A DNA stretch of 37,850 bases from a virus: the UHGV virus genome UHGV-0195539. The stretch is one strand, 5' to 3'. The notes under the pieces are model-generated. The model saw nothing but the letters and a program-made list of their open reading frames with translations. It ran no database searches and was not told the origin of the DNA. How positions within the stretch are numbered: the stretch's first letter is position 1; every line of letters starts with the position of its first letter. Below are positions 1,741-30,307 of this stretch, in pieces. Made by a program: the position numbers and the translations under genes.

Positions 1741-1894
1741 AATTCCTCCGTTTTTCCCGCCACAGTTGCATACCAGAAACACCACCGGAATGAGTTTGGG
1801 TTGTATGTGTATTGCGAGAAACCGCAGTTCGTGAAAAAGCTCCCCGTGTTCGTAAAGATCTCTGCTGAACTCACACGAATGCATGGTGAATAAT

Positions 1895-3082
1895 ATGGCT
1901 GAAACCCGTTTCCATGGCGTGCGGGTCCGGGAGAATGCGGATCTGGTCACGGCCATTAATGATATTGACTCCAGTGTGATTGGTATCGTGGCTGTTGCTG
2001 ATGATGCTGATGCAAAAACATTTCCGCTGGATAAGCCGGTGCTCCTGACGCGCGTTATGGATGTGCTGGGTAAGGCCGGGAAAACCGGCACGCTGTACAA
2101 AAGTCTGAAAGCTATTGCCGATCAGGTCAGCACCAGAGTTGTTGTGGTGCGGGTTGCTGCTGCGAAGGAGGGGGATGGTCAGCCGACACAAACGCAGCTT
2201 GTTATTGGTGAGGTCAAAAATGACGGAACCTATACAGGCATGCAGGCGCTCCTGGTGGCTGAACAGAATGAGGCTGTTGGTGTTCGTCCCAGGATCCTGG
2301 CTGTGCCATCGCTTGACACCAAAGAGGTGGTGGCGGCACTGGTAACCGTCGCGAAAAAGCTGCGTGCCTTTGTGTATGCGGGCTGTCCCGGCTGTAATAC
2401 CGTGCAGGAGGCTGTCACCTGGCGCGCCGATCTTGCTCACCGTGAAGTTATGCTGATCTGGCCTGATTTTATCGCGTACAACCCTAACAGTGGCCAGAAT
2501 GAGGCTTTTCCTGCATCTGCGTATGCGTGCGGGTTGCGTGCGAAGATTGACCACGAGCAGGGCTGGCATAAATCCCTGTCCAATGTGGCAGTGAATAATG
2601 TCCTGGGTATTTCTGTGCCGGTGTTCTGGTCGCTCCAGGCAGAGGACAGTGACGCGGAAACCCTCAATGACAAGGAGATCACGACACTCATTAAACGTAA
2701 CGGCTTCCGTTTCTGGGGTAACCGGACTCTCGACACCACTACCTACACCTTTGAGACCTACACGCGTACGGCGCAGTCGCTGGCGGATACCATCGCCGAA
2801 TCGCAGTTTGAAACCGTGGACAAGCCGCTGACGCCGTCGAACGTGAAGGATGTGTTAAGCGATATCCGGGCAAAACTGAGTGCCTTTGTGACAGCGGGTA
2901 AACTTATCGGGGCAGAGTGCTGGTATGACGTGGTGGATAACGGCACAACGGATCTGCGTCAGGGGGTTGTGCGCATTCGCTACAAGTATACGCCGGTGCC
3001 ACCGCTTGAAGATCTTGAGCTTCACCAGACGTTTACCGATGAATTCTTTGCGGGTGCATTTGCATCACTGGGAGGTGAGTAA
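1895..3082 (+). CDS. FI: contractile tail sheath protein FI
   Basis: N-terminus HGVRV, FPLDKPVLL, GTL, and LRAF, PDF, KIDHEQGWHKSLSNV, NRT, YTPVPPLEDL match P2 FI. Second in-frame ATG chosen for GGTGA SD; stop overlaps FII start (TAATG). Confidence 0.9.
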   Translation: MAETRFHGVRVRENADLVTAINDIDSSVIGIVAVADDADAKTFPLDKPVLLTRVMDVLGKAGKTGTLYKSLKAIADQVSTRVVVVRVAAAKEGDGQPTQTQLVIGEVKNDGTYTGMQALLVAEQNEAVGVRPRILAVPSLDTKEVVAALVTVAKKLRAFVYAGCPGCNTVQEAVTWRADLAHREVMLIWPDFIAYNPNSGQNEAFPASAYACGLRAKIDHEQGWHKSLSNVAVNNVLGISVPVFWSLQAEDSDAETLNDKEITTLIKRNGFRFWGNRTLDTTTYTFETYTRTAQSLADTIAESQFETVDKPLTPSNVKDVLSDIRAKLSAFVTAGKLIGAECWYDVVDNGTTDLRQGVVRIRYKYTPVPPLEDLELHQTFTDEFFAGAFASLGGE

Positions 3083-3591
3083 TGGCGGTACCAAACAAAC
3101 TTCGCGTTTTCACGGTGTACATCGATGGCGAAAACAAGCTGGGGCGGGTGACGTCCTTCACGTCGCCTAAACTGACCCGAAAAACGGAGTCCTTCCGTGG
3201 TGCCGGGATGCCCGGCAGTGTTTCCGTCGACTTTGGTCTTGATGATGGTGCACTGGATCTCTCTTTTGCGGTAGGCGGCGCAGATGCCCACCTTTTCTCC
3301 CGTTATGCCGGGTCACTTGATGAAGTCCGTCTTCGCTTTTCCGGTGAGTACTATTCGGATGCGGATATCAGATATGTGGATATTGAGGTCCGTGGGCGCA
3401 TCACTGAAATCGATATGGGGGAGGCGAAGCAGGGTGAAGACACTGAGCACAGTTATTCGATGAAAAACACCTGGTACAGACTGAGCGTGGATGATCGGGA
3501 AAAAATCGAATTTGATGTGCTGAATTTTATCTGGCGCATTGACGGTAAGGATGTGCTGCCGGATCGCACCCGCTCGATGCTGGGCTTCTGA
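3082..3591 (+). CDS. FII: tail tube protein FII
   Basis: 169-aa ORF directly after the sheath gene; size and position are typical of P2 FII. Confidence 0.85.
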   Translation: MAVPNKLRVFTVYIDGENKLGRVTSFTSPKLTRKTESFRGAGMPGSVSVDFGLDDGALDLSFAVGGADAHLFSRYAGSLDEVRLRFSGEYYSDADIRYVDIEVRGRITEIDMGEAKQGEDTEHSYSMKNTWYRLSVDDREKIEFDVLNFIWRIDGKDVLPDRTRSMLGF

Positions 3592-3609
3592 TTATTGTTT
3601 AACAGAGAA

Positions 3610-3626
3610 CGGCGGGGATCCCGCCG
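3610..3626 (+). terminator. GC-rich stem-loop between tail tube and chaperone genes (possible attenuator)
   Basis: Inverted repeat CGGCGGG-GAT-CCCGCCG seen directly; no U-tract follows, so probably not a full terminator. Confidence 0.3.
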
Positions 3627-3638
3627 TGGAGACTGAAA

Positions 3639-4028
3639 ATGGATAAAGAAACGGAAATGACCACTGACACTGCCGTCAGTAACGGGGAGGCTTCCGCGGT
3701 GGCGGTTGCCGCTACGGCTGCACCTAAGAACGTGGTGAAGCTGACGGTGCCTGTTGTGCGCGGAGATGTGTCGTACAGTGAAATTAAAATCGGTCCGCTG
3801 GCGAATCAGGCCGGATCGCTGCGTGGGCTGTCTTTGCTTGCGCTTTATAATATGAACTGTGATGCCATGGTCACCTGGCTTGCGCGTGTGACAGAGCCAA
3901 AACTCAAGGAGGCCGAAATGTATGCCATGAATGTGGCGGATTTTACGGCGCTGAGCTCGGCGGCGGTTAATTTTTTCGCACCCTCGGGGTCGAATGCACC
4001 GGCACCGGAGAACACGGCAGAGCCGTAA
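3639..4028 (+). CDS. E: tail assembly chaperone E
   Basis: 129-aa ORF between tube and tape-measure genes with GGAGA SD; contains a slippery heptamer near its 3' end. Confidence 0.8.
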   Translation: MDKETEMTTDTAVSNGEASAVAVAATAAPKNVVKLTVPVVRGDVSYSEIKIGPLANQAGSLRGLSLLALYNMNCDAMVTWLARVTEPKLKEAEMYAMNVADFTALSSAAVNFFAPSGSNAPAPENTAEP

Positions 4029-4186
4029 CCTGTCTTTGCTTTGACTGCATTGAAGATCCCGTTGCGGATATTGCTGTTATTTTTAACTGGCCGCCCGCAG
4101 AGATATTTGCAATGACGCCTGCAGAGGTGGTCGCCTGGCGTGAGCGGGCGGCTGCCAGAAGCGGAAGTCACAATCATGATGAATAA
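3639..4186 (+). CDS. tail assembly chaperone E+E', predicted programmed -1 frameshift product
   Basis: Heptamer T TTT TTC at about 3971..3977 in the E frame; the -1 frame then stays open for about 70 codons to TAA at 4184..4186, overlapping the start of T. Confidence 0.5.
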
Positions 4187-6968
4187 TCTGCATATCAGGG
4201 TTGCTCTGGCGGCGGCAGACACCCTGACACAACCTCTCAGGCGCGCCCGCGAAACCGTGGGCGCGCTTTCTGATTCCCTCCGTGAAACTCAGGACTCCAT
4301 CCGCTCGCTTGAACGGCAGAGTGAAGCCTTTGCTGCGGCACAGACTAAATTTGACGAAGCCACCCGGAAAATTGCCGCTGTTCAGCAGCAACTGAACCGT
4401 CTGCAGCAGGCGGAGCGTGAGGGTACCGTGCTCAGTGAACGGCAGCGTGAAATGATGGCTTCGCTGACCACCCGGCTTGAACGTCTGAACCGGGTGAGGG
4501 ATGTACATCAGCGACGCCTGGAGGATTCACGCCGGGAGCTGGAGAGACACGGTATTGCCGCAGAGGGCAGCAGTCAGACCATACAGGCAGCCATTCGCCG
4601 GACGGCAGAGTATAACGAAGAGCTGGCGCGACAGCGGCAGGCGCTCGCACAGGTGACCCGTGCACAGCAACGCTATGAACAGGCGCAGGAGCGACTCGGG
4701 CGGATACGTAATGCCGGTGCGGCGGCACTGGCTGCCGGTGCAGCAGGACTTTACGCTGGCGGGCGTGCTGTTGCGCCGGTGATGGATCTCCAGCGTCATG
4801 GTGCCGTCATTGCGGCTCAGGCAGGAGAGGGCGCGTCAGATGCCGTGGGGTATACCGGGGTTATAAACCACATGGTTCATACCGGTATCACACCGGATGC
4901 ACAACTGGCGGCTGAAGCTGTGGGTGCTGTCCGCTCCACTCTGGGTGGGCTGGGGGCGGTTAGTGAGAATGAACTGACCCGAATCACCCGAAAAATGCTG
5001 GATATGCAGGCCGTGATGGGGGGCGATATCCCGCAGCACATTCAGGCGGCTGCCATCATGATCAAAAACGGTCTTGCACGCAGCAGTGACGAGGCGGTTG
5101 ATCTGATGGTGGCGGGCATGCAGCGCATGGGGCCGGTTATGCGCGATGAGCTGCCTGAGATCCTTCACGAGTATTCGACCCATTTTCGTAACATGGGGCT
5201 GACAGGGTCGGAAACCATGACGCTCCTTGCGGATATGGCGCAGCAGGGGAAGTTTGCGCTGGATAAAACCGGCGATGCCATCAAGGAGTTCAGTATTCGC
5301 GGCTCCGATATGTCAAAGGCGAGTGCTGAAGCGTATGCGCTTATCGGGCTGGATGCAGCCAGGATGTCATCGGCTGTAGCCAGTGGTGGAACGGCTGCAC
5401 GGGCTGCGCTGCAGAAAACAGCCTCGGGTCTGTTGCAGATCGTCGATCCGGCTGAGCGGGCCAATGCGGCCATCGCACTTTTTGGTACACCGGTTGAAGA
5501 TCTGTCTGTCGATCAAATCCCTGCCTTTCTTGGCGCGCTGGCGCGGGTGTCTGACCGTATGGCTGACGTGTCTGGTGTGGCGGACCGGATGGGGCAAACC
5601 CTGCGTGACAATCTGAGTGGTGATGTGGCGCGGCTTACCGGGACGTTCAGCGCGCTGAGAAGTGGGATTATCGGGGAGATTACGGACGATCTGCGTGGGC
5701 TTGTCCGGATGGCCACAGCGTGGGGTGAGCGTCTGCAGGCGTGGGTGAATGCGCATCCGGAACTGGTGCGAATGATTGCGCTGACGACGGGAGCGGTGCT
5801 GGCGTTAACCACAGCGATGGGGGCGTTGTCCGTTGCGGCCTGGATGGTTGTCGCACCGTTACTGAAACTGCGTCTGGGGCTTGCCCTGCTTCGCGCGATC
5901 CCGGCCGGACTCTCTGTTGCCGGTACGCTGTTTGGCGGACTGACGGGTGTGATTTCAGCCGTGGGGGCTGCGCTGGGGGCGCTGACCTGGCCGGTTGTGG
6001 TGGCGGTGGGAGCCCTGGTCGGTGGTGCTCTGCTGATCTGGCGCTACTGGGATCGGGTCAGGGCGTTTGTGAGCGGATTTATTGAAGGGGTACAGTCAGC
6101 ACTGGCGCCCTTCATGGCGACAGCCTCCCGTTTTGCGCCGCTGCTGGATCTGGTTTCAGGGGCACTGTCCCGTATTCTGGGATGGTTTAAATCCCTGTTA
6201 ACGCCAGTCTCCTCCACGCGTGATTTGCTTGAGCAGTGCACCTCTGCCGGGCAGACGTTCGGGAGCTCTCTGGCCGGTGCGTTAGCCACGGTTTTTTCGC
6301 CCCTGAAAGCTCTGATTGACGGTCTGGCGTGGGTGCTGGAAAAACTCGGTGTTCTGCCCGGTGAAGCTGAGCGGGTTAAGCGAAAACTGGATGAGGCCCG
6401 TAAAACGCCGGTGGCATGGGAGTGGGATCCGGAACAGAAAAAAATGGTTCAGAAGGCGTGGCACTGGTCGCCTCCTGGTGGGGCCAGTGTGCCTTCCGGC
6501 GCCTCCGGTACACAGCCTCCGCCGGTGGCGCTCCCTGCGGGGATAGCGCCGGACGGTAACCGTAACGTTCTCCGTCACCTGAAAGGCATTGAGGGGAATA
6601 CCGGTGGTCTGCTGGCTGAAAACCGTAAACGTATCGGACCCGGAGATATTGTGTTTAAACATCTTCCACGGGCGCTGGCGGTCCGGGGGCAGTGGCATGA
6701 ACCTGTCGTTGCGCCGTCTTCCGGCGGAATGCGCGCGCTGCCACAGGAGGAGATTCAGGTGCAGCAATGGCCGACGGCACGCCCGGCGCCACGAATGCAC
6801 CAGCAGGAAACCTTCGCCAGCGCCTTTCAGGGGGAGATACATGTGCATCTTCACGGGGTGAGTTCGCATAATCCCCGGGAACTGGCGCGCATGGTTGGTG
6901 ACGCTGTCAGGGCGGAAATGAACAGAATGGCACGTGCCGGAACCGGCAGCTTCCGCGATCGCGACTGA
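4140..6968 (+). CDS. T: tail tape measure protein T
   Basis: 942-aa ORF with coiled-coil N-terminal region, central Ala/Gly-rich hydrophobic segments and P2 tail gene position. GTG start with GAGGTG SD; ATG at 4176 is an alternative. Confidence 0.85.
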   Translation: MSGRLPEAEVTIMMNNLHIRVALAAADTLTQPLRRARETVGALSDSLRETQDSIRSLERQSEAFAAAQTKFDEATRKIAAVQQQLNRLQQAEREGTVLSERQREMMASLTTRLERLNRVRDVHQRRLEDSRRELERHGIAAEGSSQTIQAAIRRTAEYNEELARQRQALAQVTRAQQRYEQAQERLGRIRNAGAAALAAGAAGLYAGGRAVAPVMDLQRHGAVIAAQAGEGASDAVGYTGVINHMVHTGITPDAQLAAEAVGAVRSTLGGLGAVSENELTRITRKMLDMQAVMGGDIPQHIQAAAIMIKNGLARSSDEAVDLMVAGMQRMGPVMRDELPEILHEYSTHFRNMGLTGSETMTLLADMAQQGKFALDKTGDAIKEFSIRGSDMSKASAEAYALIGLDAARMSSAVASGGTAARAALQKTASGLLQIVDPAERANAAIALFGTPVEDLSVDQIPAFLGALARVSDRMADVSGVADRMGQTLRDNLSGDVARLTGTFSALRSGIIGEITDDLRGLVRMATAWGERLQAWVNAHPELVRMIALTTGAVLALTTAMGALSVAAWMVVAPLLKLRLGLALLRAIPAGLSVAGTLFGGLTGVISAVGAALGALTWPVVVAVGALVGGALLIWRYWDRVRAFVSGFIEGVQSALAPFMATASRFAPLLDLVSGALSRILGWFKSLLTPVSSTRDLLEQCTSAGQTFGSSLAGALATVFSPLKALIDGLAWVLEKLGVLPGEAERVKRKLDEARKTPVAWEWDPEQKKMVQKAWHWSPPGGASVPSGASGTQPPPVALPAGIAPDGNRNVLRHLKGIEGNTGGLLAENRKRIGPGDIVFKHLPRALAVRGQWHEPVVAPSSGGMRALPQEEIQVQQWPTARPAPRMHQQETFASAFQGEIHVHLHGVSSHNPRELARMVGDAVRAEMNRMARAGTGSFRDRD

Positions 6969-20293: not shown

Positions 20294-20365
20294 GGAAATT
20301 CTCCATAACCTGGTCGTTTTTCCCATGATGGCGGCAGATAACGGTGTGTCTCAAGGTGCTTAAGT

Positions 20366-20383
20366 TGTATGGCGACGGGGACA
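20366..20383. promoter_or_regulatory. candidate Ogr-dependent late promoter box (TGT-N12-ACA) in the divergent O/P intergenic region
   Basis: Exact TGT-atggcgacgggg-ACA read from the sequence, centred about 55 nt upstream of a plausible start site for P. Confidence 0.4.
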
Positions 20384-20448
20384 ACGCGGGCTGGTATCAG
20401 GCGGTATTGCTGAGGCTTAATCTTGCCCTGTTAATGTCAGGGGGTGCA

Positions 20449-22182
20449 ATGATCCAGGATGTCTTTATTCGTATGCGGGCGAAACAGCTTTACTGGCAGG
20501 GGTATACCCCGGCGGATATCGCTCAGCTGATGGGAATAAACCAGAACACGATTTATTCGTGGAAAAAACGCGATGAGTGGGATGCCACTCCCCCGATCCA
20601 GCGGGTCACCCAGTCCATTGATGCACGCCTGATACAGCTCACCGCCAAACCGGATAAAAGCGGCGGTGACTTTAAGGAAATTGACCTGCTGACGCGCCAG
20701 CTGAAAAAACTGAATGACGGTCAGGGAGAACAGGCTGTTTCCGGTAAGAAGCCCCGCAGGCGCAAACTGAAAAATCACTTCACCGAAGAGCAGATTGTCG
20801 CACTCAGGGAAAAAATCCTGCCGTCACTGGCCTGGCATCAGCGCGAATGGTACGACAACCGCCATCACCGCAACCGCATGATCCTGAAGTCGCGTCAGAT
20901 TGGTGCGACCTGGTATTTTGCGCGCGAAGCACTCCTTGATGCACTGCGTGATGATGTCTCCGCCGGGTACCAGCGCAACCAGATATTTTTGTCCGCATCC
21001 CGTCGCCAGGCGTATCAGTTCAAACACTTTATTCAGCAGGCGGCGCTGGAAGTTGATGTCGAACTGAAAGGGGGTGACAAGATTGTTTTGTCTAACGGTG
21101 CAGAGCTTCACTTCCTTGGCACATCGGCAGCAACCGCTCAGTCGTATACCGGACACCTTAAATTTGATGAATTTTTCTGGGTCAGTAACTTTGTGGAACT
21201 CAGGAAGGTTGCTGGGGCAATGGCGACACTGGAAGGGCTTACGCGAACCTACTTTTCAACACCGTCAGGTGAAACACATGAGGCGTATCAGTTCTGGACG
21301 GGGGACCGCTGGAACAGCGAACAGCCACGCTCAAAACGCAGTGAGTTTGATGTTTCACATGCGCATCTGAAGGGGGGCGTGCTCTTTCCTGACGAAACAT
21401 GGCGGCAGATTGTCACTATTGAGGATGCTGTCGCTAACGGATGGCGGTACACCAATATTGGTGTTATTCGCGGCGAAAATACAGAAAGTGAATTTCGTAA
21501 TCTGTACATGTGCGAATTTGTCCGTGATGGTGAGGCAGCCTTCAGCCTGAGTGCGCTCACCGGCTGCGGTGTTGACGGCTATGACGAATGGCCTGACTGG
21601 AAACCTTTTGCTGCCCGCCCTATGGGGGTGAGGGAGGTCTGGCTTGGGTATGACGCCAACGGCAGCAGCGGGAAGGGGGACTGCGGGGCACTGTCGGTGT
21701 GCGTGCCGCCCCTTGTTGCCGGTGGGCGTTTTCGCACGGTGGAAACTGTCAGGGTTCAGGGGATGGAGTTTGAACAGCAGGCCGCACTGATTGAGGAATA
21801 CACCCAAAAATATAACGTGAAACATATCGGCATTGATGTGACCGGCGGGAACGGGGAGGGGGTTTATCAGATTGTGAAAAAGTTTTTCCCGATGGCCGTA
21901 CCGTACAACTTCAATATCGCCTCCAAGCGGGCACTGGTCATGAAAATGCTTCAGGTGGTGCGTGCCGGACGCTGGGAGTATGACCGCAGTGAACGTGACC
22001 TGATCCAGGCATTCGCATCGGTGCGAAAAATACAGACACCCGGCGGCTATATCACCTACGACACCGACCGCTCCCGTGGCGTCAGCCATGGTGACCTCGC
22101 CTGGGCAACCATGCTTGCTGTTATCAATGAGCCAATTGGTGCGGAGCGTGAGGATAATCGCGGCTTTGCAATGGAGTTCTGA
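20449..22182 (+). CDS. P: terminase ATPase (large) subunit P
   Basis: LYWQGYTPADIAQ and IYSWKKR in the N-terminal domain; ATPase and nuclease regions throughout; ATG with AGGGGG SD. Confidence 0.9.
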   Translation: MIQDVFIRMRAKQLYWQGYTPADIAQLMGINQNTIYSWKKRDEWDATPPIQRVTQSIDARLIQLTAKPDKSGGDFKEIDLLTRQLKKLNDGQGEQAVSGKKPRRRKLKNHFTEEQIVALREKILPSLAWHQREWYDNRHHRNRMILKSRQIGATWYFAREALLDALRDDVSAGYQRNQIFLSASRRQAYQFKHFIQQAALEVDVELKGGDKIVLSNGAELHFLGTSAATAQSYTGHLKFDEFFWVSNFVELRKVAGAMATLEGLTRTYFSTPSGETHEAYQFWTGDRWNSEQPRSKRSEFDVSHAHLKGGVLFPDETWRQIVTIEDAVANGWRYTNIGVIRGENTESEFRNLYMCEFVRDGEAAFSLSALTGCGVDGYDEWPDWKPFAARPMGVREVWLGYDANGSSGKGDCGALSVCVPPLVAGGRFRTVETVRVQGMEFEQQAALIEEYTQKYNVKHIGIDVTGGNGEGVYQIVKKFFPMAVPYNFNIASKRALVMKMLQVVRAGRWEYDRSERDLIQAFASVRKIQTPGGYITYDTDRSRGVSHGDLAWATMLAVINEPIGAEREDNRGFAMEF

Positions 22183-22187
22183 ACACA

Positions 22188-23231
22188 ATGAGTAAACGCA
22201 AAAAATACACCGGAAAGCGGGGGCAGGATTCGCTACACGATGCACTGAAATCAACGCCTGCACTCAGCGCATTCACCTTTGATGGGCCCTATGAAGTCAG
22301 CCACATGGATCTCCTGGATAACATGTCATGTGCAGATAACGGGCGCTACTTTGATACCCCCATGGACTGGAACGCTATCGCCCGTGCATCCCGTCGTGCG
22401 TCCTGGCATCAGTCGGCTTTGTACTTCAAGCGCAACGCCCTGAACGGGTGCTTTGTTCCTCACCCTCTGCTGTCCCGCCAGGCGTTTTCAGCCTTTGCGC
22501 TCGACTGGTTTGTGTTTGGTAATGCCTATCTTGAAGTGCGGCGTAACAGGCTGGGGGAACCACTCCTGCTTCGCCCGGCACTGGCAAAATATACACGCAG
22601 GGGAAGTGACCTGGATACCTACTGGTATCTCAACGACGACGGTACGGAGTTCAGTTTCAGGAAAGGGACTGTGTGCCACGTGCTTAATCCTGATATTAAT
22701 CAGGAGATCTACGGGATGCCGGAATATATCGGCGGGTTGCTGTCTGTCAGCCTGTCAAACTCAGCGGATACATTCCGCAAGCTCTACTACGATAACGGCT
22801 CGCATGCCGGGTGTATTATCTATGTAGGCACACCTCAGGCGAATGCGGAAAGTGTCGAGGCCATTAAAAAAACGCTTACGGATTCCCGTGGTCGCGGGGC
22901 GTTTAAAAACCTGTTTCTTCATGCGCCGGGTGGTGGCAAGGATGGTGTGCAAATACTGCCGTTCCAGCAGATAACCGCAAAGGATGAATTCCTGAACATC
23001 AAGGGGAGCGCCCGCGACGATATCCTTGCTGCCCATCGTGTACCACCTCAACTGATGGGGGCAATGCCTGACGGGAATGCGGCGTTTGGTGACGTTGAGA
23101 AAGCGGCGAGGGTGTTTTTCATCAACGAGTTGCAACCTGTCATGGAGGCCATGAAGCATGTCAATGAATGGCTTGGCGTTGAGGTGATGCGCTTTAACCC
23201 CTATGCCCTGCTTCTGGATAACGCCAGCTGA
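22188..23231 (+). CDS. Q: portal protein Q
   Basis: 347-aa ORF immediately after the large terminase gene, P2 gpQ-like in size and position. Confidence 0.9.
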   Translation: MSKRKKYTGKRGQDSLHDALKSTPALSAFTFDGPYEVSHMDLLDNMSCADNGRYFDTPMDWNAIARASRRASWHQSALYFKRNALNGCFVPHPLLSRQAFSAFALDWFVFGNAYLEVRRNRLGEPLLLRPALAKYTRRGSDLDTYWYLNDDGTEFSFRKGTVCHVLNPDINQEIYGMPEYIGGLLSVSLSNSADTFRKLYYDNGSHAGCIIYVGTPQANAESVEAIKKTLTDSRGRGAFKNLFLHAPGGGKDGVQILPFQQITAKDEFLNIKGSARDDILAAHRVPPQLMGAMPDGNAAFGDVEKAARVFFINELQPVMEAMKHVNEWLGVEVMRFNPYALLLDNAS

Positions 23232-23258
23232 CGCGCTTCGCTTGTCTGCTGCTTCGCC

Positions 23259-23281
23259 GGGGCATAAAAAATTTATGCCCC
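23259..23281. terminator. bidirectional hairpin between converging portal gene and orphan gene
   Basis: Inverted repeat GGGGCATAAA-AAA-TTTATGCCCC seen directly. Confidence 0.45.
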
Positions 23282-23296
23282 GACTCTCCAGCTCTC

Positions 23297-23800
23297 TTAA
23301 CGGAATGCGGATGGCGTTCTTCTTTGCAGCTTGCTGATAATATGCATCTTCATACTGTTTACTATCGGCAGCCATTCCCTGTCACCGTCTCCGTTGATGA
23401 CCACGCGAATGGAGGTATCATCTTCCACGCGAACCCGAAGAGATACACCGTCTTTTCCGACGGAATGTAACTCCATTGCCAGGACTATGTTTACCGACTC
23501 TCCTTCATCGTGTGAGTCAACCCATGTTCTTACAGCCATCCGGAATATGTTATCTGTGTCGGTTGCAATCATATTTACCGGAAATGGCCTGAAGTCCCGA
23601 TCGTTTCTGCACGGAAACCCCGTATCAACGTAACGATGATGCTCGCCGTCTTTGTCTTCCCATGTCTCTGAAGGCAATTCCAGCCACTGCTCATAAAAAG
23701 CAACCAGCTTTTCAGCCTGATTGCGCAGAATCCCTGTAACCTCCCGCCTCGCGTCCCGGCTCTTTTTGTTTGCCAGGTACAAATCGCGAAAATGGCTCAT
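23297..23800 (-). CDS. hypothetical protein (orphan cargo gene, 167 aa)
   Basis: Clean ORF with its own upstream intergenic region, converging on Q; no family recognised from sequence. Confidence 0.55.
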   Translation of the reverse strand: MSHFRDLYLANKKSRDARREVTGILRNQAEKLVAFYEQWLELPSETWEDKDGEHHRYVDTGFPCRNDRDFRPFPVNMIATDTDNIFRMAVRTWVDSHDEGESVNIVLAMELHSVGKDGVSLRVRVEDDTSIRVVINGDGDREWLPIVNSMKMHIISKLQRRTPSAFR

Positions 23801-24336
23801 GTCGCTCTCCTTTGGTCTGTTTATGCCAGCCTGTATTCTGCGCTCACCTCATATTGTGCGCAAGTTTTCACCCGTGAATGACTGATACTTTAAATTCTAT
23901 TAACTTTATGATTTCAGTGATTTTTGTCTCTCTTTTTTATCCCGTTCGTCACGTCCGTTTCCCTCCCGATCTCCGACCTCGCCAGACGCAATCAGACGCA
24001 TTCTGACGGCCTGTTTCCCTGACCATGTTTTGATGTGGTTTTTCAAAACTGACTTTACTGCGTGCGTATCACGCGCCATACGACCCCAAATAAAGCAACC
24101 CGCCTTCCATCCCTCAATTCGGGCGCCCTTCCCTCGTCGCCTGCGCGCTGCAATTGCCTCGTTTTTCGTGCACCGTGCAAACCGGCCTCAGCCAGCGCCG
24201 TTACCGGGCGGAATGGGGAAAAAGTACATTAGAAAAATTGTGCAATTTCGTGCGCTTTTGTGCAGTTTTGATCTTGCGATTTTTTGTGGCAGGTGGTGAT
24301 GATATTCATCTGTCTGAATCAGTGGGAGACTGCCGG

Positions 24337-24882
24337 GTGAGAACTGTGAAAAATTACTCATATCCTTATTTAACTTTTGTCACGCTTTCTGTTTTGGGGG
24401 GGATTTTTCTTTTTATTTGGTGGCGAAACGATGTTTACAGAATTACCTACCTTTATTCGTTCACGACAAACTGCCTTGTTTCAGTGTCTGTGGTGCTTTC
24501 GGTTTTTGTCTCACTGTGCCTGTTGAAAAAGAACCTGGTTGATCGGTCTAAATTTACCGGGGTTACATCGTATCTTAAGTTTTTTTCGGGTATGTGCCTT
24601 CTTACCTGGATGATTCTGTTTACCCTCCTGGTTACGCTGATATATTTTCTTCCGGGTGAAGATTCATTCTATTCCGCTCCCTATGAGTACAGTCGCGGTA
24701 GCTCAAAAAGTTGTTCAGGGGCATTTGTTGATGATCCTGATTTGCAAAAAACAATATTTATTTGCTACCCATACGGTGACTATCAGGATGGTAATGTGAT
24801 TTATGTGAAGAAGCGTGTGAATGCGCTGGGGGCGGTGGTCACCTATGCATACGCGACAAGCGGCCGATTTCGGTTTGACTGA
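24337..24882 (+). CDS. hypothetical multi-pass membrane protein with C-terminal soluble domain (about 181 aa)
   Basis: About three hydrophobic helices then a 75-aa Tyr/Gly-rich tail. Visibly AT-rich relative to neighbours. Track ORF begins at an upstream TTG; GTG with GGGAG SD preferred, start uncertain. Confidence 0.5.
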   Translation: MRTVKNYSYPYLTFVTLSVLGGIFLFIWWRNDVYRITYLYSFTTNCLVSVSVVLSVFVSLCLLKKNLVDRSKFTGVTSYLKFFSGMCLLTWMILFTLLVTLIYFLPGEDSFYSAPYEYSRGSSKSCSGAFVDDPDLQKTIFICYPYGDYQDGNVIYVKKRVNALGAVVTYAYATSGRFRFD

Positions 24883-24897
24883 AAAAAGAAATCCTGT

Positions 24898-24921
24898 GTT
24901 ACCCTCGCTGCTGAGGGTAAC
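24898..24921 (-). terminator. rho-independent terminator closing the replication operon
   Basis: Perfect 9-bp inverted repeat GTTACCCTC-GCTGCT-GAGGGTAAC followed on the minus strand by a T-rich run. Confidence 0.55.
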
Positions 24922-24931
24922 ATGCGTGAAG

Positions 24932-25249
24932 TCATCGCCCGGTTCTTGAGCTGATAATGCTTTGCGCCAGCAACTGCCAGCCCTCTTTCTGTTGCCCGTA
25001 CTTGTCCTGATACCTGTTTACCTGCAAGTTTCCGTGCACCAGAATCAGATCGCCTTTTCTGTGTTTTGCCAGTTCTTCGTGCTGCTTCCCGAATGCAATA
25101 AGGTAAAGCCACATTGTGGTTGGCTGTTCTGCGCCATGGCAGGGTAGTGATACCGCCAGTTGTGCCGTTGTGACGTTGGTTCCTTTGGTTGTTCTCCTTG
25201 TGTTCGGGTCTGCTGCCAGTCGTCCCTCTGTTGCAACCTGTGTTGGCAT
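24932..25249 (-). CDS. SSB-like OB-fold protein (short, no C-terminal tail)
   Basis: Pattern aligns with the SSB OB-fold (e.g. WLYLIAFGKQHEELAKHRKGDLILVHGNLQVNRYQDK versus [36 protein letters not shown]); GGGAGA SD. Confidence 0.65.
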   Translation of the reverse strand: MPTQVATEGRLAADPNTRRTTKGTNVTTAQLAVSLPCHGAEQPTTMWLYLIAFGKQHEELAKHRKGDLILVHGNLQVNRYQDKYGQQKEGWQLLAQSIISSRTGR

Positions 25250-25281
25250 ATTTGTCTCCCGTGTTGGTTTTATTGTTGGGG

Positions 25282-25620
25282 TTAGATGACTGGCAGCTCT
25301 TCGCCAGCGCCGTAGATAAACAGAATTCGCTTCATGATTTCGCTGCGCTTGCAGGCTTCAATTACGGACGGCTCTTGTTGCCATTCTGCCCGTTGCGCCA
25401 GCTCCAGTCGTTCCTTTTCCGTTAGCTTCCGGTAATGCGTTATCTTGTCCGTGTACCCGTCCACAACCAGCAGCCCTTCGCGTACCATCTTCCCGGCGGC
25501 CTGATTAATGATGGTCCTTTTCACGCCCAGTTTTTCAACCAGCTCTGGTGCGCTGAAGCGTGCGTGCGTTTCCAGGTAGCGTAAAATGATTACCTTTCCG
25601 GTCATTCTGGGTGTCTTCAT
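25282..25620 (-). CDS. winged-helix DNA-binding protein (putative regulator)
   Basis: HTH-like segment FSAPELVEKLGVKRTIINQAAGKMVREGLL; ATGA overlap with the upstream gene stop. Confidence 0.55.
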   Translation of the reverse strand: MKTPRMTGKVIILRYLETHARFSAPELVEKLGVKRTIINQAAGKMVREGLLVVDGYTDKITHYRKLTEKERLELAQRAEWQQEPSVIEACKRSEIMKRILFIYGAGEELPVI

Positions 25621-25835: not shown

Positions 25836-26240
25836 TTACCTGCGTGATTGCCTGCTGGCGGCCGAATGCACATAGCGGACAATTGCCGCTTTTCGGTTAA
25901 CGACGGCCAGCGTTCTTGCCAGTTCTTCGTTGAGTTTTCTGGTCTGTTTTTCGTGGTATGCCTGCATGATTTTTCCTACGGGAGTCAGTGGTTCAGGCTC
26001 TGATATGGCGCGACGAGGGCGCACGGCAACGATGAATGCGCTTCTGTCGGTGTTGATTCTTGCAGTCAGGATGTCGGTCATAACGGTGTCTGTGCTGCGA
26101 TCGGGACTGGCGATCGTGATTTCCAGTTCGTCGCCTGGCTGCGGTCGAACACTGACGCCGCTCAGTGTCAGTGCCGGAATGCGTGCGTTCATGATGGTGC
26201 TGAAATCATGGCGCTGGAGTACGCAATGGAATCGTGTCAT
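25836..26240 (-). CDS. hypothetical protein (134 aa)
   Basis: ATGA overlap with the replication gene stop; GGAGG SD. Confidence 0.55.
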   Translation of the reverse strand: MTRFHCVLQRHDFSTIMNARIPALTLSGVSVRPQPGDELEITIASPDRSTDTVMTDILTARINTDRSAFIVAVRPRRAISEPEPLTPVGKIMQAYHEKQTRKLNEELARTLAVVNRKAAIVRYVHSAASRQSRR

Positions 26241-28750
26241 GGGTTAACCTCCGGTTGATCTGCTGCCACCAGGCTTCGTGATTTTTCATCCCAGTGCACA
26301 ATCCGCCCGTCAGGCAGGCGAACGCGTGCACCTCTGTGTACGGAAAGTGCTGCGCCACTGTGTAGCTCCTCGCCCGTCGTGCTCAGTGCCGACTTGATCA
26401 CGGTGGTGGTGACGTCAGTCAGTGGCAATGCTGTACGTACATGTATGACGTCATCGGGCGTGGTGGAGCCGCCGGTTTTCACGGTTTTTGTGTCAGATGG
26501 CGCATCTTTCAGCTGCCTGGTGAGTTGTTTTCTCTCTGTGGGGGTCAGTGACCTTAACCATTCGCTCAAATCACCTTCCGGGATGGTCAGTTTTTGTTCT
26601 TTCCTGGTTTCCGGTGGTGGGGTTTTCCCCTCTCCGGTGTCTGTTTTTTCATCATGGGGACAGTTATTGCCACGAGTCCAAGGTGCGGCAAAGCCGCACT
26701 CAACGTCAAAACCCTCGTCCGTGCTGTTGTCGGCTTTCGCTTCTTTTCTGACCAGTTTCCACTCGTCCGGATGGGTACAGATGGTGTAGCGCTCGCCGAG
26801 CGACGGGGCGCAAATTCCGTAGATGCGCTGCGGGAATTCGCCGTAGTCGTTGGCCTCATCTGCGGTTTCGTATGCGGTGCGGACCAGGTACGCGTTGCGG
26901 GGAATGAGCACGCCACCCTGGCGGGTGATGTAGGTGGCAAAACACCCCACGTCAGCAGCGGCCAGAATGGCGTCAATGTCGTCATGATCCAGGCGCTTCG
27001 GTGATGCCGGGTTGCGCTCCATCTGTCCGGCAAGGCGGCGTAGTTCACGCCACACCTGGCGGGGCGGGATGCCGAAGAACTGGAACTGACGGATGCGATG
27101 GAGACTCGCCCAGGCAATGGCGTTTTCCACGGTTTCGGCCATGGTTTTCCCTGATTCCTCATCGGCGTAAGGTTTGCCGGTTTTCGGGTCATTGTCGTGA
27201 AAGGCGCTGGCGTCCAGGTTCTTGCCGATATAGGTTGCGATGTAACTTGCCGGTGTGCCTTTTGCCGGGTCGATTTTTTCGCACTTGAAGCGCGGCGAAA
27301 TATCATCCCCCAGTTCTGCGCGATCTGATTTGACTGCCGCGTCACGCATGATTGCAATGATGCGTTCTTCATTGTCCGGGGAGGTGAATACCAGCATGTG
27401 CCAGTGCGGTGTGCCGTCATGGTGTGGCTCAACGGTGCGCACCCCGTACCAGCTCAGGCCTTCTTTGTTGAGTTTTTTTCTTACAGCTGCAAAGACGTCG
27501 TACACCAGATAATCGCTGGCATCGCGCACGGTGGCACCGTTGTATTTCGGGTTCAGGCTGCCGTCCTCGTTTACGCTGTGAAAGCGGGAAGGGCAGGTCA
27601 CTGTCACGAAGAACGCGGAGTCACCACGCGATTCGGCGACCTGTTCCATCCCTCTGACGCAGGCCATCATCTCGTTGCGGCGGTTGCGCGGATTCCCCAG
27701 CCCTGACCAGTACACGTCCTCCAGGCTCAGGCGTTCACCGTCTTCGTTTTCAATGTCCCAGCTTTTGAGAAAATCACGGGTGCGCTGGCGTTTCTCCCGG
27801 AATTCCTGGAGTGACTCATGGCTGATGTAGGGGGATGCCTTGCGCGATACTCTTCCGGCGGCACGCAGTAATTCCTCCCGCCAGAGATCGGCGAGGTGGC
27901 GCAGCTGGTTGTTCCACCAGGTGGCGCAGGTGATGCGCATTACTGCACCCGGTACCCGTTCAGGGTCTGGTGCCGTGCGGCGGTCACGTCTGAGCTCGAG
28001 TGACGGCCAGCATGGTGGGGTCACGCCCAGTTTTAACGCCATGCGCGCCAGCTGCTGGTAAGTCAGCAACCAGGTAAACAGGTTATCGTCGCCTTTTCCT
28101 GTCCGCTCAGTAACTTCATCACATATGCGTTCCAGTTCGGTGGAAAATGCCGCCGCTGTTAGTGTGGCAAGGCGCTGAATTTGATCACGGTTGAGTTGTG
28201 GCAGCATGAGTAATTCATCAAGGCGATGGCGTGCTGCGGTGGCTTTGAATGCCGTCGTGGCGAAGCATTCATTCACCTGTTCGATGCGTTTCAGGCGTGT
28301 GCGCAGTCCACGGCGAACAAAGTTATCAGCCACGTGTGTATTGTTGTTTTTCACGCCTTCATGGCGGGCGCTTTGCTGTTTGCGGTTTAAACGCGCCAGA
28401 TCACGAATGAGCGCGTTGCCAAGAAACGAGGGCAGGGCGCGAAGTTCTGCCATGGCTTCCGATACCACTGTGGGCGGATTTTCGCGTTTGTGTCTCGCCA
28501 GTTTTTCCAGTCTGATCCGGCGCTCTTCGTCGTGGTGAAGATGCGAATTAATTCGCTTGCCTTCGTCTGTGTTTGTCAGGAAGTCGACGGTCTCTTCATC
28601 CAGTCTTGCATCAATGCGAATGTCTTCGTTGATGTAGCTCTGAATGGCCTGGCGTAATGCGGTTGGTTGCGCTCTGCCGAACGTTTCAGGATCGATAACC
28701 GGTAGCGGGGCGTTCCACGGGTACGCCAGTTGTGCGTTATGGTCGCTCAT
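26237..28750 (-). CDS. A: replication initiation endonuclease A (rolling-circle, HUH type)
   Basis: HWHMLVF HUH-type motif and large size match P2 gpA; ATG with GGGGAG SD, ATGA overlap with upstream gene. Confidence 0.9.
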   Translation of the reverse strand: MSDHNAQLAYPWNAPLPVIDPETFGRAQPTALRQAIQSYINEDIRIDARLDEETVDFLTNTDEGKRINSHLHHDEERRIRLEKLARHKRENPPTVVSEAMAELRALPSFLGNALIRDLARLNRKQQSARHEGVKNNNTHVADNFVRRGLRTRLKRIEQVNECFATTAFKATAARHRLDELLMLPQLNRDQIQRLATLTAAAFSTELERICDEVTERTGKGDDNLFTWLLTYQQLARMALKLGVTPPCWPSLELRRDRRTAPDPERVPGAVMRITCATWWNNQLRHLADLWREELLRAAGRVSRKASPYISHESLQEFREKRQRTRDFLKSWDIENEDGERLSLEDVYWSGLGNPRNRRNEMMACVRGMEQVAESRGDSAFFVTVTCPSRFHSVNEDGSLNPKYNGATVRDASDYLVYDVFAAVRKKLNKEGLSWYGVRTVEPHHDGTPHWHMLVFTSPDNEERIIAIMRDAAVKSDRAELGDDISPRFKCEKIDPAKGTPASYIATYIGKNLDASAFHDNDPKTGKPYADEESGKTMAETVENAIAWASLHRIRQFQFFGIPPRQVWRELRRLAGQMERNPASPKRLDHDDIDAILAAADVGCFATYITRQGGVLIPRNAYLVRTAYETADEANDYGEFPQRIYGICAPSLGERYTICTHPDEWKLVRKEAKADNSTDEGFDVECGFAAPWTRGNNCPHDEKTDTGEGKTPPPETRKEQKLTIPEGDLSEWLRSLTPTERKQLTRQLKDAPSDTKTVKTGGSTTPDDVIHVRTALPLTDVTTTVIKSALSTTGEELHSGAALSVHRGARVRLPDGRIVHWDEKSRSLVAADQPEVNP

Positions 28751-29163
28751 GCGTCGCACTCCCCGGCAGTCGCCGCCTGAAACGCCGCGCGGTACAGCAT
28801 GAGAAGGCGCTGGTATTCGCCGATAAAACCTTCTGCGGTGTATATACCTTTCACGGCCACGCTGTGGTTTGTCATTTCCAGAACCAGCGCCATCTCTGAT
28901 GACGACCAGCTGATGGTGGTGCTGTCGGTGCCGTTGATGTGAAATAAACCCAGTCCATCACCATCACCTTTCACGTCCACGCGGTAACGACCGTCAACGG
29001 TGAAGGAGAAATCCCCGGATGTGGTGATGCTGCGGGCAGCCTGTTTACAGGCGCGGCGGTAATAGTCGTGCCAGTCGTTCAGGCGGGAAGCCAGCCGGGG
29101 ATCCACTGCCCACATCCAGTTAAAAAAATCCTGAATATCTGAAAGTCCCTTAACGCTCTTCAT
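28747..29163 (-). CDS. hypothetical early protein (138 aa)
   Basis: GGAGG SD; ATGA overlap with A start. Confidence 0.55.
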   Translation of the reverse strand: MKSVKGLSDIQDFFNWMWAVDPRLASRLNDWHDYYRRACKQAARSITTSGDFSFTVDGRYRVDVKGDGDGLGLFHINGTDSTTISWSSSEMALVLEMTNHSVAVKGIYTAEGFIGEYQRLLMLYRAAFQAATAGECDA

Positions 29164-29459: not shown

Positions 29460-29842
29460 GGTGTGGCCTCTTCGTTTGTGAATTTTGAAAACTCACCAAC
29501 CAGAGGTGGAAAACTCAGGGTGGCGAGACGTACAGGGTTTCCACAACCGGCAAACGAAGAAACCGGCCCGACCGAAGTCGGCCCTGTACGCCCCGCCATA
29601 ATTCTGACGCGAAAAAGACGTGGCGATACAGTACGCACAAAAAAACCGCTGGCGCGGCTGTGCGCTTCGTTTGTCAGCGGGGTGGAAATCCCGGCACCCG
29701 TTTTATGAGGTGCAGCGGAAATGTAACCCGACACGACGAGCGCTGGCAAGCGGTTTTTGTGTTGCGTGCTGATGTGGTTAGAATGTGGCGAATTAATATC
29801 ACCTGGCAACTGGTGATTGTCTGCATACGCGGGGTGTTTCTG

Positions 29843-30307
29843 ATGAGTGATAAGCTCCCTTCTGATTACGACATTCTTTTTGACCTGTGGTACAGCTACT
29901 GGCTTGAACGTATTACATGTGTGTTTCACCGACGCGTTTCTGCTGCTCTGCGAATCAGCGCCTTTCTGGTTGGTGTTGCGGCGTTTGTCCTGTGTGATTT
30001 TGTTGTGTTGGTACTCTTCAGTGTGGTTCTGTTTCTGCTCTGGCAGTGCATGGCTGCCAGTTTTGAACGCAGGGCTGAAAAGGCTGAATGGCAGACAGTC
30101 AGTTACCAGCGCCTTATCAGTCAGCGCCATGTGATTAGTAAGGAATGCATGATTGCGCGCCTCTCCTTTGTTGAGGAAAGTGACAGTCCCATCATGGAGT
30201 GCATGATTAATCTTGCCTGGAATAAAGCCTGTGAGGCGGTTGGCAGCTCTTCGCGCAATCATGTTTCGTTCTCCGGTCGGTTACTCAGTCGCCTGTGCGG
30301 CTTCTGA
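29843..30307 (+). CDS. hypothetical membrane protein encoded antisense to the early operon
   Basis: Hydrophobic core ISAFLVGVAAFVLCDFVVLVLFSVVLFLLW; upstream TTGTGT-16 nt-TAGAAT sigma70-like promoter. Start chosen at MSDKLP; 3' end overlaps the convergent next gene. Confidence 0.4.
   Translation: MSDKLPSDYDILFDLWYSYWLERITCVFHRRVSAALRISAFLVGVAAFVLCDFVVLVLFSVVLFLLWQCMAASFERRAEKAEWQTVSYQRLISQRHVISKECMIARLSFVEESDSPIMECMINLAWNKACEAVGSSSRNHVSFSGRLLSRLCGF

What the first reader, a model, noticed from the sequence alone, without database searches (positions are those of the whole stretch)
23232..24931. Cargo island at the portal / cos / replication-operon junction: two divergent orphan genes flanked by inverted-repeat hairpins
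In P2-like phages the interval between gene A and the portal gene Q holds tin and old and is a documented hotspot for anti-phage systems. Here it holds a 167-aa orphan (minus) and an AT-rich multi-pass membrane protein (plus) diverging from a 536-bp non-coding region. Neither resembles Old or any family I can name, so they are the best candidates for an undescribed defence or exclusion function.
Basis: partly seen in the sequence, partly recalled or inferred. Interest (0 to 1): 0.75.

Follow-up and report, generated by a model that had tools for sequence, protein, structure and literature searches.

The report
Two independent cargo genes flanking cos
In a P2-like prophage of E. coli, the gap between the portal gene and the replication operon holds two unrelated, separately exchangeable accessory genes of unknown function, one on each side of the DNA-packaging site; they are reasonable but unproven candidates for phage-exclusion functions in a hotspot that is already documented.

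Summary
A 167-aa ORF (23297-23800, minus) and a 178/181-aa three-helix membrane ORF (24337/24346-24882, plus) lie between portal gene Q and the end of the early operon of a P88-like (Xuanwuvirus) prophage, bounded by two perfect hairpins. They are not a divergent pair with a shared control region. The 536-bp spacer contains a backbone-like segment (23951-24268) that carries the packaging (cos) region, so the genes sit at opposite ends of virion DNA. Among the 27 of 5426 E. coli genomes with this cos segment, 6 have both genes, 5 have ORF167 with a DUF4760 gene, and 16 have the membrane gene only. Each is a low-GC single-gene cassette. Neither matches Pfam, NCBIfam, PADLOC or PDB sequences. Both belong to PHROGs of unknown function and recur in accessory slots of lambdoid prophages. 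ORF167 gives a confident AlphaFold model (pLDDT 91) with no close structural relative. The membrane protein has the size and layout of inner-membrane superinfection-exclusion proteins but is not homologous to SieA. Defence function is plausible but untested. These are new cargo in a known hotspot.

The parts
22188..23231 (+). Portal gene Q (left flank, backbone)
   Evidence: ORF of 347 aa. PGAP names it 'phage portal protein' in a 99.8%-identical locus.
23258..23282 (.). Hairpin 1: perfect 11-bp stem with a 3-nt loop. It is the conserved terminator after Q and is positioned to stop ORF167 transcripts too (ORF167's stop codon is 15 nt away).
   Evidence: dG -17.7 and -24.5 kcal/mol, z -4.1 and -5.0. 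It is 100% conserved in P88 and relatives that lack the cargo. P2 has an annotated tQ terminator at the equivalent place.
23297..23800 (-). ORF167: a soluble, mildly acidic 167-aa protein (pI 6.1) and member of phrog_5091. It belongs to a new small alpha/beta family.
23801..23950 (-). Upstream region that travels with ORF167. It holds the RBS AAGGAG (23807-23812) and weak sigma-70-like candidates (ATCACT-16-TAGAAT, with the -10 at 23894-23899).
   Evidence: Cassette boundaries 23294/23951 and 23306/23969 come from comparison with relatives that lack ORF167. The promoter scan gave 8 of 12 matches, and no strong consensus site was found.
23951..24268 (.). Backbone segment between the two cargo cassettes. 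Its GC is 0.54, like the backbone, and it holds the packaging (cos) region, placed at roughly 24170-24225.
   Evidence: Relatives share it whatever cargo flanks it (27 genomes, 82-99.7% identity). The end of the linear record of phage P88_4B11 maps to about 24219. Resemblance to the P2 cos region at 24175-24193 is weak and not significant window-wide.
24238..24268 (+). Three TTGTGCA-like repeats next to cos: two TTGTGCA plus a variant TTCGTGC between them.
   Evidence: family D1. The same triple repeat is at the same place in P88 and P88_4B11. The function was not tested.
24346..24882 (+). Membrane protein gene of 178 aa (181 aa if it starts at GTG 24337). It has three predicted transmembrane helices and a conserved C-terminal beta domain of about 75 aa with two invariant cysteines. 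The C-terminal half matches phrog_1416.
   Evidence: The model is low-confidence (pLDDT 63). The gene is present in 22 of 5426 E. coli genomes at >=99.4% identity.
24897..24922 (.). Hairpin 2: perfect 10-bp stem with a 6-nt loop. On the minus strand it is followed by UUUCUUUUUU, so it looks like the intrinsic terminator of the early operon after ssb. It may also stop the membrane gene's transcript.
   Evidence: It travels with the membrane-gene cassette. A relative with DUF4760 instead has a different hairpin.
24932..25249 (-). Short SSB gene (105 aa, OB fold only), the last gene of the early/replication operon (right flank, backbone).
   Evidence: Pfam SSB, E 1.5e-14. PGAP annotation.

Best explanation
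The interval is the cos-proximal accessory hotspot of a P88-like (P2-family) prophage. It holds two separate single-gene 'moron' cassettes, one on each side of the packaging site. Shown: each cassette has lower GC than the backbone, a terminator hairpin at its 3' end and at most weak promoter candidates. Each is present or absent independently of the other in close relatives, and each has homologues in accessory slots of unrelated (lambdoid) temperate phages. Inferred function of the right-hand gene (24346-24882): it occupies the position and orientation of P2 old, reading away from cos. It encodes an N-in, three-helix inner-membrane protein whose most conserved part is a periplasmic beta domain with a probable disulfide. 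It is most likely made by the lysogen and acts at the envelope, most plausibly by blocking genome entry of superinfecting phages, as P22 SieA or HK97 gp15 do. Inferred function of the left-hand gene (23297-23800): it encodes a small cytoplasmic alpha/beta protein with no catalytic signature. It most likely works by binding another protein, either as a single-protein exclusion factor or as an inhibitor of a host or phage function.
For: Anatomy. The gene order O(-), P(+), Q(+), [interval], ssb/MarR/gpA(-) matches P2 with the cos junction in the middle. Only the Q terminator matches known phages.

Independence. Of the 27 genomes carrying this cos segment, 6 have both genes, 5 have ORF167 plus DUF4760, and 16 have the membrane gene only. 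A 77% ORF167 variant sits with a TumE/HVO_A0114 pair instead.

Cassette character. GC is 0.47 and 0.43 for the cassettes, 0.54 for the cos segment and 0.53-0.57 for the backbone. The cargo genes are >=99.4% identical across genomes, while the segment between them is 82-99.7% identical, mostly 90-98%. Both hairpins are real.

Real genes. ORF167 has dN/dS 0.16. The membrane family has 41 invariant columns, nearly all in the C-terminal domain.

Other accessory slots. Membrane homologues (51% identity) lie in phages 434, mEp332 and 2B8 between xis and exo, antisense to the pL operon. They also lie at the same portal-proximal slot of Salmonella P2-like prophages. ORF167 relatives lie between antiterminator Q and the holin in lambdoid prophages of Salmonella, Yersinia, Citrobacter and Serratia.

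Expression hint. The only Ogr-type TGT-N12-ACA motif between 19 and 26.5 kb is at the O/P promoters (20366-20383). Neither cargo gene has one upstream.

Topology. Three hydrophobic peaks and a strongly basic second loop (KKNLVDRSKFTGVTSYLK) place the C-terminal domain, with its two invariant Cys, in the periplasm.

Known analogue. P22 SieA is 162-164 aa, has three predicted TM helices and no signal peptide, sits in the inner membrane and blocks DNA injection (PMC10883804).

Hotspot precedent. The gpA-gpQ locus is a documented hotspot of anti-phage systems (PMC9122126). In the 2026 survey, 19% of P2-like elements carry only unknown genes there, and 6 of 8 such unknown loci tested in P4 gave protection (PMC13586616).
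Against: There is no functional evidence of any kind. PADLOC has no match for either protein. The membrane protein is not homologous to SieA (hhalign probability 0.18). It has no tblastn match at E<=1e-3 in the phage collection other than the 434 type, so any similarity to HK97 gp15, T4 Imm and similar proteins rests on layout alone. Its model is low-confidence and its fold search is uninformative. A homologue also sits in the Citrobacter chromosome, next to a histidine-kinase gene and tus and outside any visible prophage, so the family is not strictly phage-borne. In lambdoid prophages the ORF167 family is co-oriented with the late operon. That placement suits a lytic-cycle role at least as well as a lysogen-expressed defence. 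The promoter candidates for both genes are weak. In P2 itself only 15-32% of unknown hotspot proteins were predicted defensive by machine learning.
Confidence: 0.45

Rival explanations
1. The two genes form one divergently transcribed two-component defence system that shares the 536-bp control region.
For: They are adjacent and divergent, and both lack known domains.
Against: They assort independently: 6 genomes have both, 5 have ORF167 only and 16 have the membrane gene only among 27 genomes. Distant homologues of each occur alone in other phages. The spacer holds a backbone segment with the cos region, so in virion DNA the genes are at opposite ends.
Confidence: 0.04
2. ORF167 serves the phage's own lytic cycle, as an anti-defence or host-takeover inhibitor that binds a host protein. 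It is not a protection factor for the lysogen.
Against: In the P88-like phage it is convergent with the late P-Q operon and has no Ogr-type motif upstream, so late co-transcription is not evident there. Late expression is an odd time for an anti-defence protein. No similarity to a known anti-defence protein was found.
Confidence: 0.25
3. The membrane protein is a lysogenic-conversion or immunity factor unrelated to phage entry. It could be an orphan immunity protein against a membrane-acting bacteriocin or effector, or an envelope-physiology factor.
For: A homologue is fixed in the Citrobacter chromosome outside any visible prophage, in a cluster with 524 member sequences. The periplasmic domain is strongly conserved rather than diversifying. 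Its small size and three-helix layout also resemble pore-forming colicin immunity proteins (this last point is from my own knowledge, not tested).
Against: It recurs at accessory slots of two unrelated temperate phage families and in 70 IMG/VR viral contigs. No toxin partner is nearby. The P2 slot it occupies is dominated by anti-phage cargo.
Confidence: 0.22
4. One or both ORFs are non-functional remnants, or chance ORFs in packaging-region DNA.
For: No database function is recorded. One genome (STEC17-183) has a 2-nt length difference in the membrane gene and no annotated CDS there.
Against: ORF167 has dN/dS 0.16 and a strong RBS, and its AlphaFold model is confident. Both families are conserved down to 20-50% identity across genera.
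Confidence: 0.04

Closest known systems
P2 old/tin locus and the gpA-gpQ cos-proximal hotspot of P2-like phages (Rousset et al. 2022, PMC9122126; NAR 2026, PMC13586616)
   Same: It is the same genomic position, between portal gene Q and the end of the replication operon and next to cos. Content varies between close relatives. The membrane gene has the position and orientation of old, reading away from cos and convergent with the early operon.
   Different: There is no homology to Old, Tin or any PADLOC model. The cargo is split into two slots, one on each side of cos. ORF167 lies between Q and cos, where P2 has only 187 nt and no gene.
P22 SieA, an inner-membrane superinfection-exclusion protein (PMC10883804)
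   Same: Both are about 160-180 aa, with no signal peptide and three predicted transmembrane helices. Both are single genes encoded by a prophage outside the operons of the lytic cycle.
   Different: There is no sequence or profile similarity (hhalign probability 0.18). SieA's conserved motif FxRYPxEAxxFNK is cytoplasmic, whereas here the conserved part is a C-terminal beta domain predicted to be periplasmic. SieA genes are confined to P22-like prophages between genes 16 and 9.
HK97 gp15 and other moron-encoded exclusion proteins (Cumby et al. 2012, cited in PMC11436027; the paper itself is not held)
   Same: It follows the moron concept: a single small membrane protein gene inserted between backbone genes, with its own transcription signals, that protects the lysogen (for the citation; details are from my own knowledge).
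   Different: There is no sequence similarity. tblastn of the membrane protein against 50,697 phage records finds only the 434/2B8/mEp332 type. The mechanism is untested here.
Cargo of the lambdoid Q-holin slot (the position of stx in Stx phages; PMC8065619)
   Same: Distant ORF167 relatives occupy exactly this slot, between the antiterminator and the holin, in Salmonella, Yersinia, Citrobacter and Serratia prophages.
   Different: The window's copy is in a P2-like phage, on the strand opposite to the late P-Q operon. The protein is unrelated to any toxin or other known cargo of that slot.
DUF4760 proteins at the same slot of P2-like prophages
   Same: A DUF4760 protein replaces the membrane gene at exactly the same junction (after 24268) in 5 related genomes. 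DUF4760 occurs 197 times in the supplementary file of Rousset et al. that lists P2-hotspot loci.
   Different: The sequences are unrelated. DUF4760 has one N-terminal helix and a helical cytoplasmic body. Its function is also unknown.

Membership tests
P2-like gpA-gpQ cos-proximal hotspot cargo | Lies between portal gene Q and replication gene A, adjacent to cos | tested here: met
   Gene order compared with P2. The hotspot definition is in PMC9122126 and PMC13586616.
P2-like gpA-gpQ cos-proximal hotspot cargo | Content differs between closely related prophages | tested here: met
P2-like gpA-gpQ cos-proximal hotspot cargo | Encodes a recognised anti-phage system | tested here: not met
   No PADLOC match for either protein at E<=1. 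No Pfam or NCBIfam match.
P2-like gpA-gpQ cos-proximal hotspot cargo | Confers resistance to phage infection when expressed | not testable with these tools
   This needs cloning and plaque assays.
Moron (independent accessory transcription unit in a phage genome) | Present or absent between otherwise collinear relatives, with sharp boundaries | tested here: met
   The ORF167 cassette is 23295/23307-23950/23968. The membrane cassette is 24269-24931.
Moron (independent accessory transcription unit in a phage genome) | Base composition differs from the flanking backbone | tested here: met
   GC is 0.47 and 0.43 for the cassettes against 0.53-0.57 for the backbone.
Moron (independent accessory transcription unit in a phage genome) | Own terminator | tested here: met
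   Perfect hairpins lie 15 nt after each stop codon. Hairpin 1 is shared with the Q operon. Hairpin 2 has its U-tract on the opposite strand.
Moron (independent accessory transcription unit in a phage genome) | Own promoter, active in the lysogen | tested here: inconclusive
   Only weak sigma-70-like matches, 8 of 12, and none at the stricter threshold on the relevant strands. No expression data are available.
P22 SieA family | Sequence or profile homology, including the motif FxRYPxEAxxFNK | tested here: not met
   hhalign probability 0.18. The motif is described and is absent from alignment A1.
P22 SieA family | About 160 aa, three transmembrane helices, no signal peptide | tested here: met
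   Hydropathy compared with the description. This is a resemblance of layout only.
OLD-family nuclease / Tin | ATPase and Toprim domains (Old), or homology to Tin | tested here: not met
   No Pfam or PADLOC match. The proteins are 167 and 178 aa, whereas P2 Old is about 586 aa (1761-nt CDS).
PHROG families phrog_5091 and phrog_1416 (unknown function) | Significant match to the family profile | tested here: met
   ORF167 matches phrog_5091 at E 1e-40 over the full length. Membrane protein residues 92-181 match phrog_1416 at E 8e-50.

The most novel reading that the evidence does not exclude
Both cassettes are undescribed single-protein anti-phage functions that move between the P2 cos hotspot and lambdoid accessory slots. 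The membrane protein would found a new family of inner-membrane DNA-entry blockers, analogous to SieA but unrelated to it, acting through a disulfide-bonded periplasmic domain. ORF167 would be a new-fold cytoplasmic exclusion or anti-defence protein. In addition, the hotspot would really be two slots, one at each end of the virion chromosome.
Probability: 0.25. Interest if true: 0.6.

Novelty: new member of a known kind. Interest (0 to 1): 0.4.

Why it matters
The cos-proximal hotspot of P2-like phages is one of the most productive places for finding anti-phage systems. About a fifth of these elements carry only unknown genes there. This window offers two compact single-gene candidates of 504 and 537 nt. 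Each has clear cassette boundaries, natural presence/absence controls in sequenced strains, and homologues in the classic accessory slots of lambdoid phages. That makes them cheap to test. If the membrane protein blocks DNA entry, it would add a second inner-membrane exclusion family shared by myovirus-type and lambdoid temperate phages. ORF167 has a confident predicted fold with no close structural relative, so it is worth solving or screening for partners. If neither gene has a phage phenotype, that would be a useful caution against reading every hotspot gene as defence.

Tried and rejected
1. I searched for the P2 cos 19-mer (GGCGAGGCGGGGAAAGCAC) with up to 3 mismatches and found no match. 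A permissive local alignment with the P2 cos junction put a cos-like 19-mer at 24175-24193. A stricter window-wide test was not better than shuffled queries: best score 28 at an unrelated site, against a shuffle mean of 24.7 and maximum of 30. The cos position therefore rests mainly on the end of the linear P88_4B11 record and on synteny, and it is given only as a range.

2. The linear record CP025901.1 did not help, because it is not cut at cos.

3. The exhaustive HMMER search linked ORF167 residues ~100-160 to giant cadherin, Ig-repeat and beta-propeller proteins. These hits are multi-stretch matches to repetitive beta-strand proteins from unrelated Pfam families. I rejected them as compositional or repeat artefacts.

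6. Profile searches of both families against PDB sequences found nothing.

7. Rfam found no RNA family in 23100-25300.

8. I looked for the current protein accessions in the supplementary tables of Rousset et al. and did not find them. An older accession (WP_001537152) appears in 'hypothetical + SSB + hypothetical' loci, but I could not establish which gene it names.

9. I tested the idea that the membrane protein is a divergent SieA and rejected it.

10. Literature searches for functional data on the phage 434 homologue, DUF4760 or Xuanwuvirus found nothing relevant.

Full report
**What the window is.** The window is a P2-family prophage of the P88 type (Xuanwuvirus), read in the reverse of the usual P2 map.
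- The order is scaffold gene O (minus), terminase P (20344-22182, plus), portal Q (22188-23231, plus), the interval in question, and then a minus-strand early operon.
- That operon ends with a short SSB (24932-25249), a MarR-type winged-helix protein, two small unknown genes and the replication endonuclease gpA (26237-28759).
- Further right are Dam-type methylase, exonuclease, Cox, a C-type repressor and integrase genes.
- In P2 the same junction holds cos, with old and tin on the far side.

**Check of the observation.**
- ORF167 runs 23297-23800 on the minus strand, with an AAGGAG site 6 nt before its ATG.
- The membrane ORF ends at 24882. PGAP starts it at GTG 24175, but homologues start at the residue that equals GTG 24346, 'MKNYSYPYL', and GTG 24337 has a good Shine-Dalgarno sequence.
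- The protein has three hydrophobic peaks and a hydrophilic tail of about 75 residues. The gene's GC is 0.42.
- The two hairpins are perfect, with 11-bp and 10-bp stems, and fold far better than shuffled sequence.
- The interval is variable. Only its first 63 nt, the Q terminator, match any of 50,697 phage records. The whole 1700 nt occur in only 6 of 5426 complete E. coli genomes, while 1140 genomes match part of the query, mostly only its first ~60-100 nt.

**Anatomy of the spacer.** Comparison with relatives splits the interval into three parts.
- A relative without ORF167 (NZ_CP060083, L009) matches the window up to 23306 and again from 23969.
- Another relative (NZ_CP145707, L010) matches up to 23294 and again from 23951.
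- The ORF167 cassette is therefore about 23295-23950: the gene plus 150 nt of its own upstream DNA.
- A relative with a DUF4760 gene in place of the membrane gene (NZ_AP045176, L008) matches the window continuously from the portal gene to 24268 and not beyond. The membrane-gene cassette is therefore 24269-24931.
- The segment between the cassettes, 23951-24268, has backbone-like GC: 0.54, against 0.47 and 0.43 for the cassettes. It is present whatever cargo flanks it, in 27 genomes.

**Position of cos.** This middle segment holds the packaging region.
- The linear record of phage P88_4B11 is cut at a point that aligns to about 24219 of the window, and its two ends are contiguous there.
- There is a weak resemblance to the P2 cos junction at 24175-24193.
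- That resemblance is not significant in a window-wide test, so I give cos only as a range, about 24170-24225.
- Three TTGTGCA-like repeats follow at 24238-24268, as in P88.
- In the packaged linear genome, the two cargo genes therefore lie at opposite ends.

**Independence of the two genes.**
- The ORF167 gene is in 11 of 5426 genomes and the membrane gene in 22.
- Among the 27 genomes with this cos segment, 6 have both genes, 5 have ORF167 with DUF4760, and 16 have the membrane gene without ORF167.
- A 77%-identical ORF167 variant sits in another P88-like prophage, where the other slot holds a TumE/HVO_A0114 pair.
- Both cargo genes are at least 99.4% identical wherever they occur, while the segment between them is mostly 90-98% identical. 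This points to recent exchange of the cassettes among diverged backbones.
- The two genes are therefore not a two-component system.

**ORF167.**
- It is a real gene: dN/dS against the 77% variant is 0.16.
- It has no match in Pfam, NCBIfam, PADLOC or PDB sequences. It does match phrog_5091, of unknown function, at E 1e-40.
- The word-indexed search found only two clusters. The exhaustive HMMER search and a profile search revealed a family of 160-180-aa proteins in Escherichia, Salmonella, Citrobacter, Yersinia, Serratia, Pantoea, Kosakonia and others, at 20-46% identity.
- The invariant residues are mostly aromatic or aliphatic: Y36, L40, L42, W47, Y57, G61, F70, T92 and K151.
- In every distant member examined, the gene sits alone between the late antiterminator Q and the holin of a lambdoid prophage. 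That is the slot that carries stx in Stx phages.
- The proteins are soluble and mildly acidic.
- AlphaFold2 with a 32-sequence alignment gives pLDDT 91 and pTM 0.85. The model is a long N-terminal helix, a seven-strand antiparallel sheet and a C-terminal helix.
- Nothing suggests an enzyme. A binding or inhibitor role is the most economical inference.

**The membrane protein.**
- Its family has few sequence types: the window type, the 434 type, a Salmonella type, a Citrobacter type, and a 43%-identical IMG/VR variant.
- The helices vary, but the C-terminal domain is nearly invariant (GSSKSCSGA-VDDPDL ... ICYP ... IYV-K ... LGAVVT), with two invariant cysteines.
- The basic second loop places that domain in the periplasm. 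This is an inference from the positive-inside rule.
- The C-terminal half matches phrog_1416.
- Homologues at 51% identity lie in phages 434, mEp332 and 2B8 between xis and exo, on the strand opposite to the pL operon. They occur in 70 IMG/VR contigs and at the same portal-proximal slot of Salmonella P2-like prophages.
- One type sits in the Citrobacter chromosome next to a histidine-kinase gene and tus.
- The AlphaFold model is poor (pLDDT 63), and its fold search is uninformative.

**Likely mechanisms.**
- Neither gene has an Ogr-type late-promoter motif upstream. The only one nearby is at the O/P promoters. Both genes have only weak sigma-70 candidates.
- The membrane gene has the position and orientation of P2 old. 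[quoted passage not shown] It is not homologous to SieA.
- I therefore propose that the lysogen expresses it and that it acts at the envelope, most plausibly by blocking genome entry of superinfecting phages through its periplasmic domain. I put this at about one chance in three.
- For ORF167 I propose a protein-binding role. I cannot decide between a lysogen-protecting exclusion factor and a lytic-cycle inhibitor. Its late-operon placement in lambdoid phages favours the second about as much as the P2 hotspot favours the first.

**Comparison with what is known, and novelty.**
- The gpA-gpQ hotspot and its rapid cargo turnover are documented (PMC9122126, PMC13586616). About 19% of P2-like elements carry only unknown genes there.
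- This window is one such case. Loci of the 'hypothetical + SSB + hypothetical' type already appear in the published tables.
- Three points add something here:
  1. The interval resolves into two independent slots separated by cos.
  2. Both cargo families are linked to lambdoid accessory slots.
  3. ORF167 has a confident, unmatched predicted fold.
- This is new cargo of a known kind, and it is of moderate interest until someone tests it.

Noticed in passing
L010 (NZ_CP145707.1) 1782-5250: A related prophage carries two copies of the cos-region segment, one 82.5% and one 99.6% identical to the window's. They flank a three-gene plus-strand cassette (458, 114 and 263 aa) with no Pfam or PADLOC match. 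This cassette is another unknown candidate system, and the duplicated packaging region suggests recombination between two phages at cos.
   Followed up: partly
window 24238-24268: Three TTGTGCA-like repeats lie immediately beside the cos region. They are conserved in number and position in P88 and P88_4B11 although the surrounding sequence differs. They could be terminase or host-factor binding sites.
   Followed up: no
window 29660-30307 (+); PGAP equivalent about 29783-30307: An ORF on the strand opposite to the early operon lies between the derepression-protein gene and a DUF4406 gene. It has no Pfam match and may be another moron.
   Followed up: partly
NZ_CP075652.1 (STEC17-183) 859647-860185: In this genome the membrane gene matches over 539 nt instead of 537 nt and has no annotated CDS, so it is probably a frameshifted copy.
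   Followed up: no
L028 (Citrobacter portucalensis NZ_MVFY01000001.1) 4001-4519; L026: A 172-aa homologue of the membrane protein (about 50% identity) sits in a chromosomal context, next to a 433-aa ORF and a 309-aa ORF whose L026 counterparts hit HAMP/HisKA histidine-kinase and Ter (tus) Pfam families, with no prophage genes in view. Its 90% cluster has 524 member sequences.
   Followed up: partly
L008 (NZ_AP045176.1) 6150-6290: Upstream of the DUF4760 gene that replaces the membrane gene is an 11-codon mini-ORF with a strong Shine-Dalgarno sequence, followed by a GC-rich hairpin and a T-run. This looks like a leader or attenuator.
   Followed up: no
window 24932-25249: The SSB at the end of the early operon is only 105 aa. 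It consists of an OB fold without the usual long C-terminal tail, and it keeps this length in relatives.
   Followed up: no
window 20366-20383: This is the only TGT-N12-ACA motif between 19 and 26.5 kb. It sits between the divergent O and P genes, where the Ogr-dependent late promoters of P2-like phages are expected.
   Followed up: no
ORF167 residues ~100-160 (window 23321-23500): The beta-strand-rich C-terminal half produces multi-stretch HMMER hits to giant cadherin, Ig-repeat and beta-propeller proteins, with E down to 3e-17. I judged these to be repeat or composition artefacts, but they could mislead automated annotation.
   Followed up: yes
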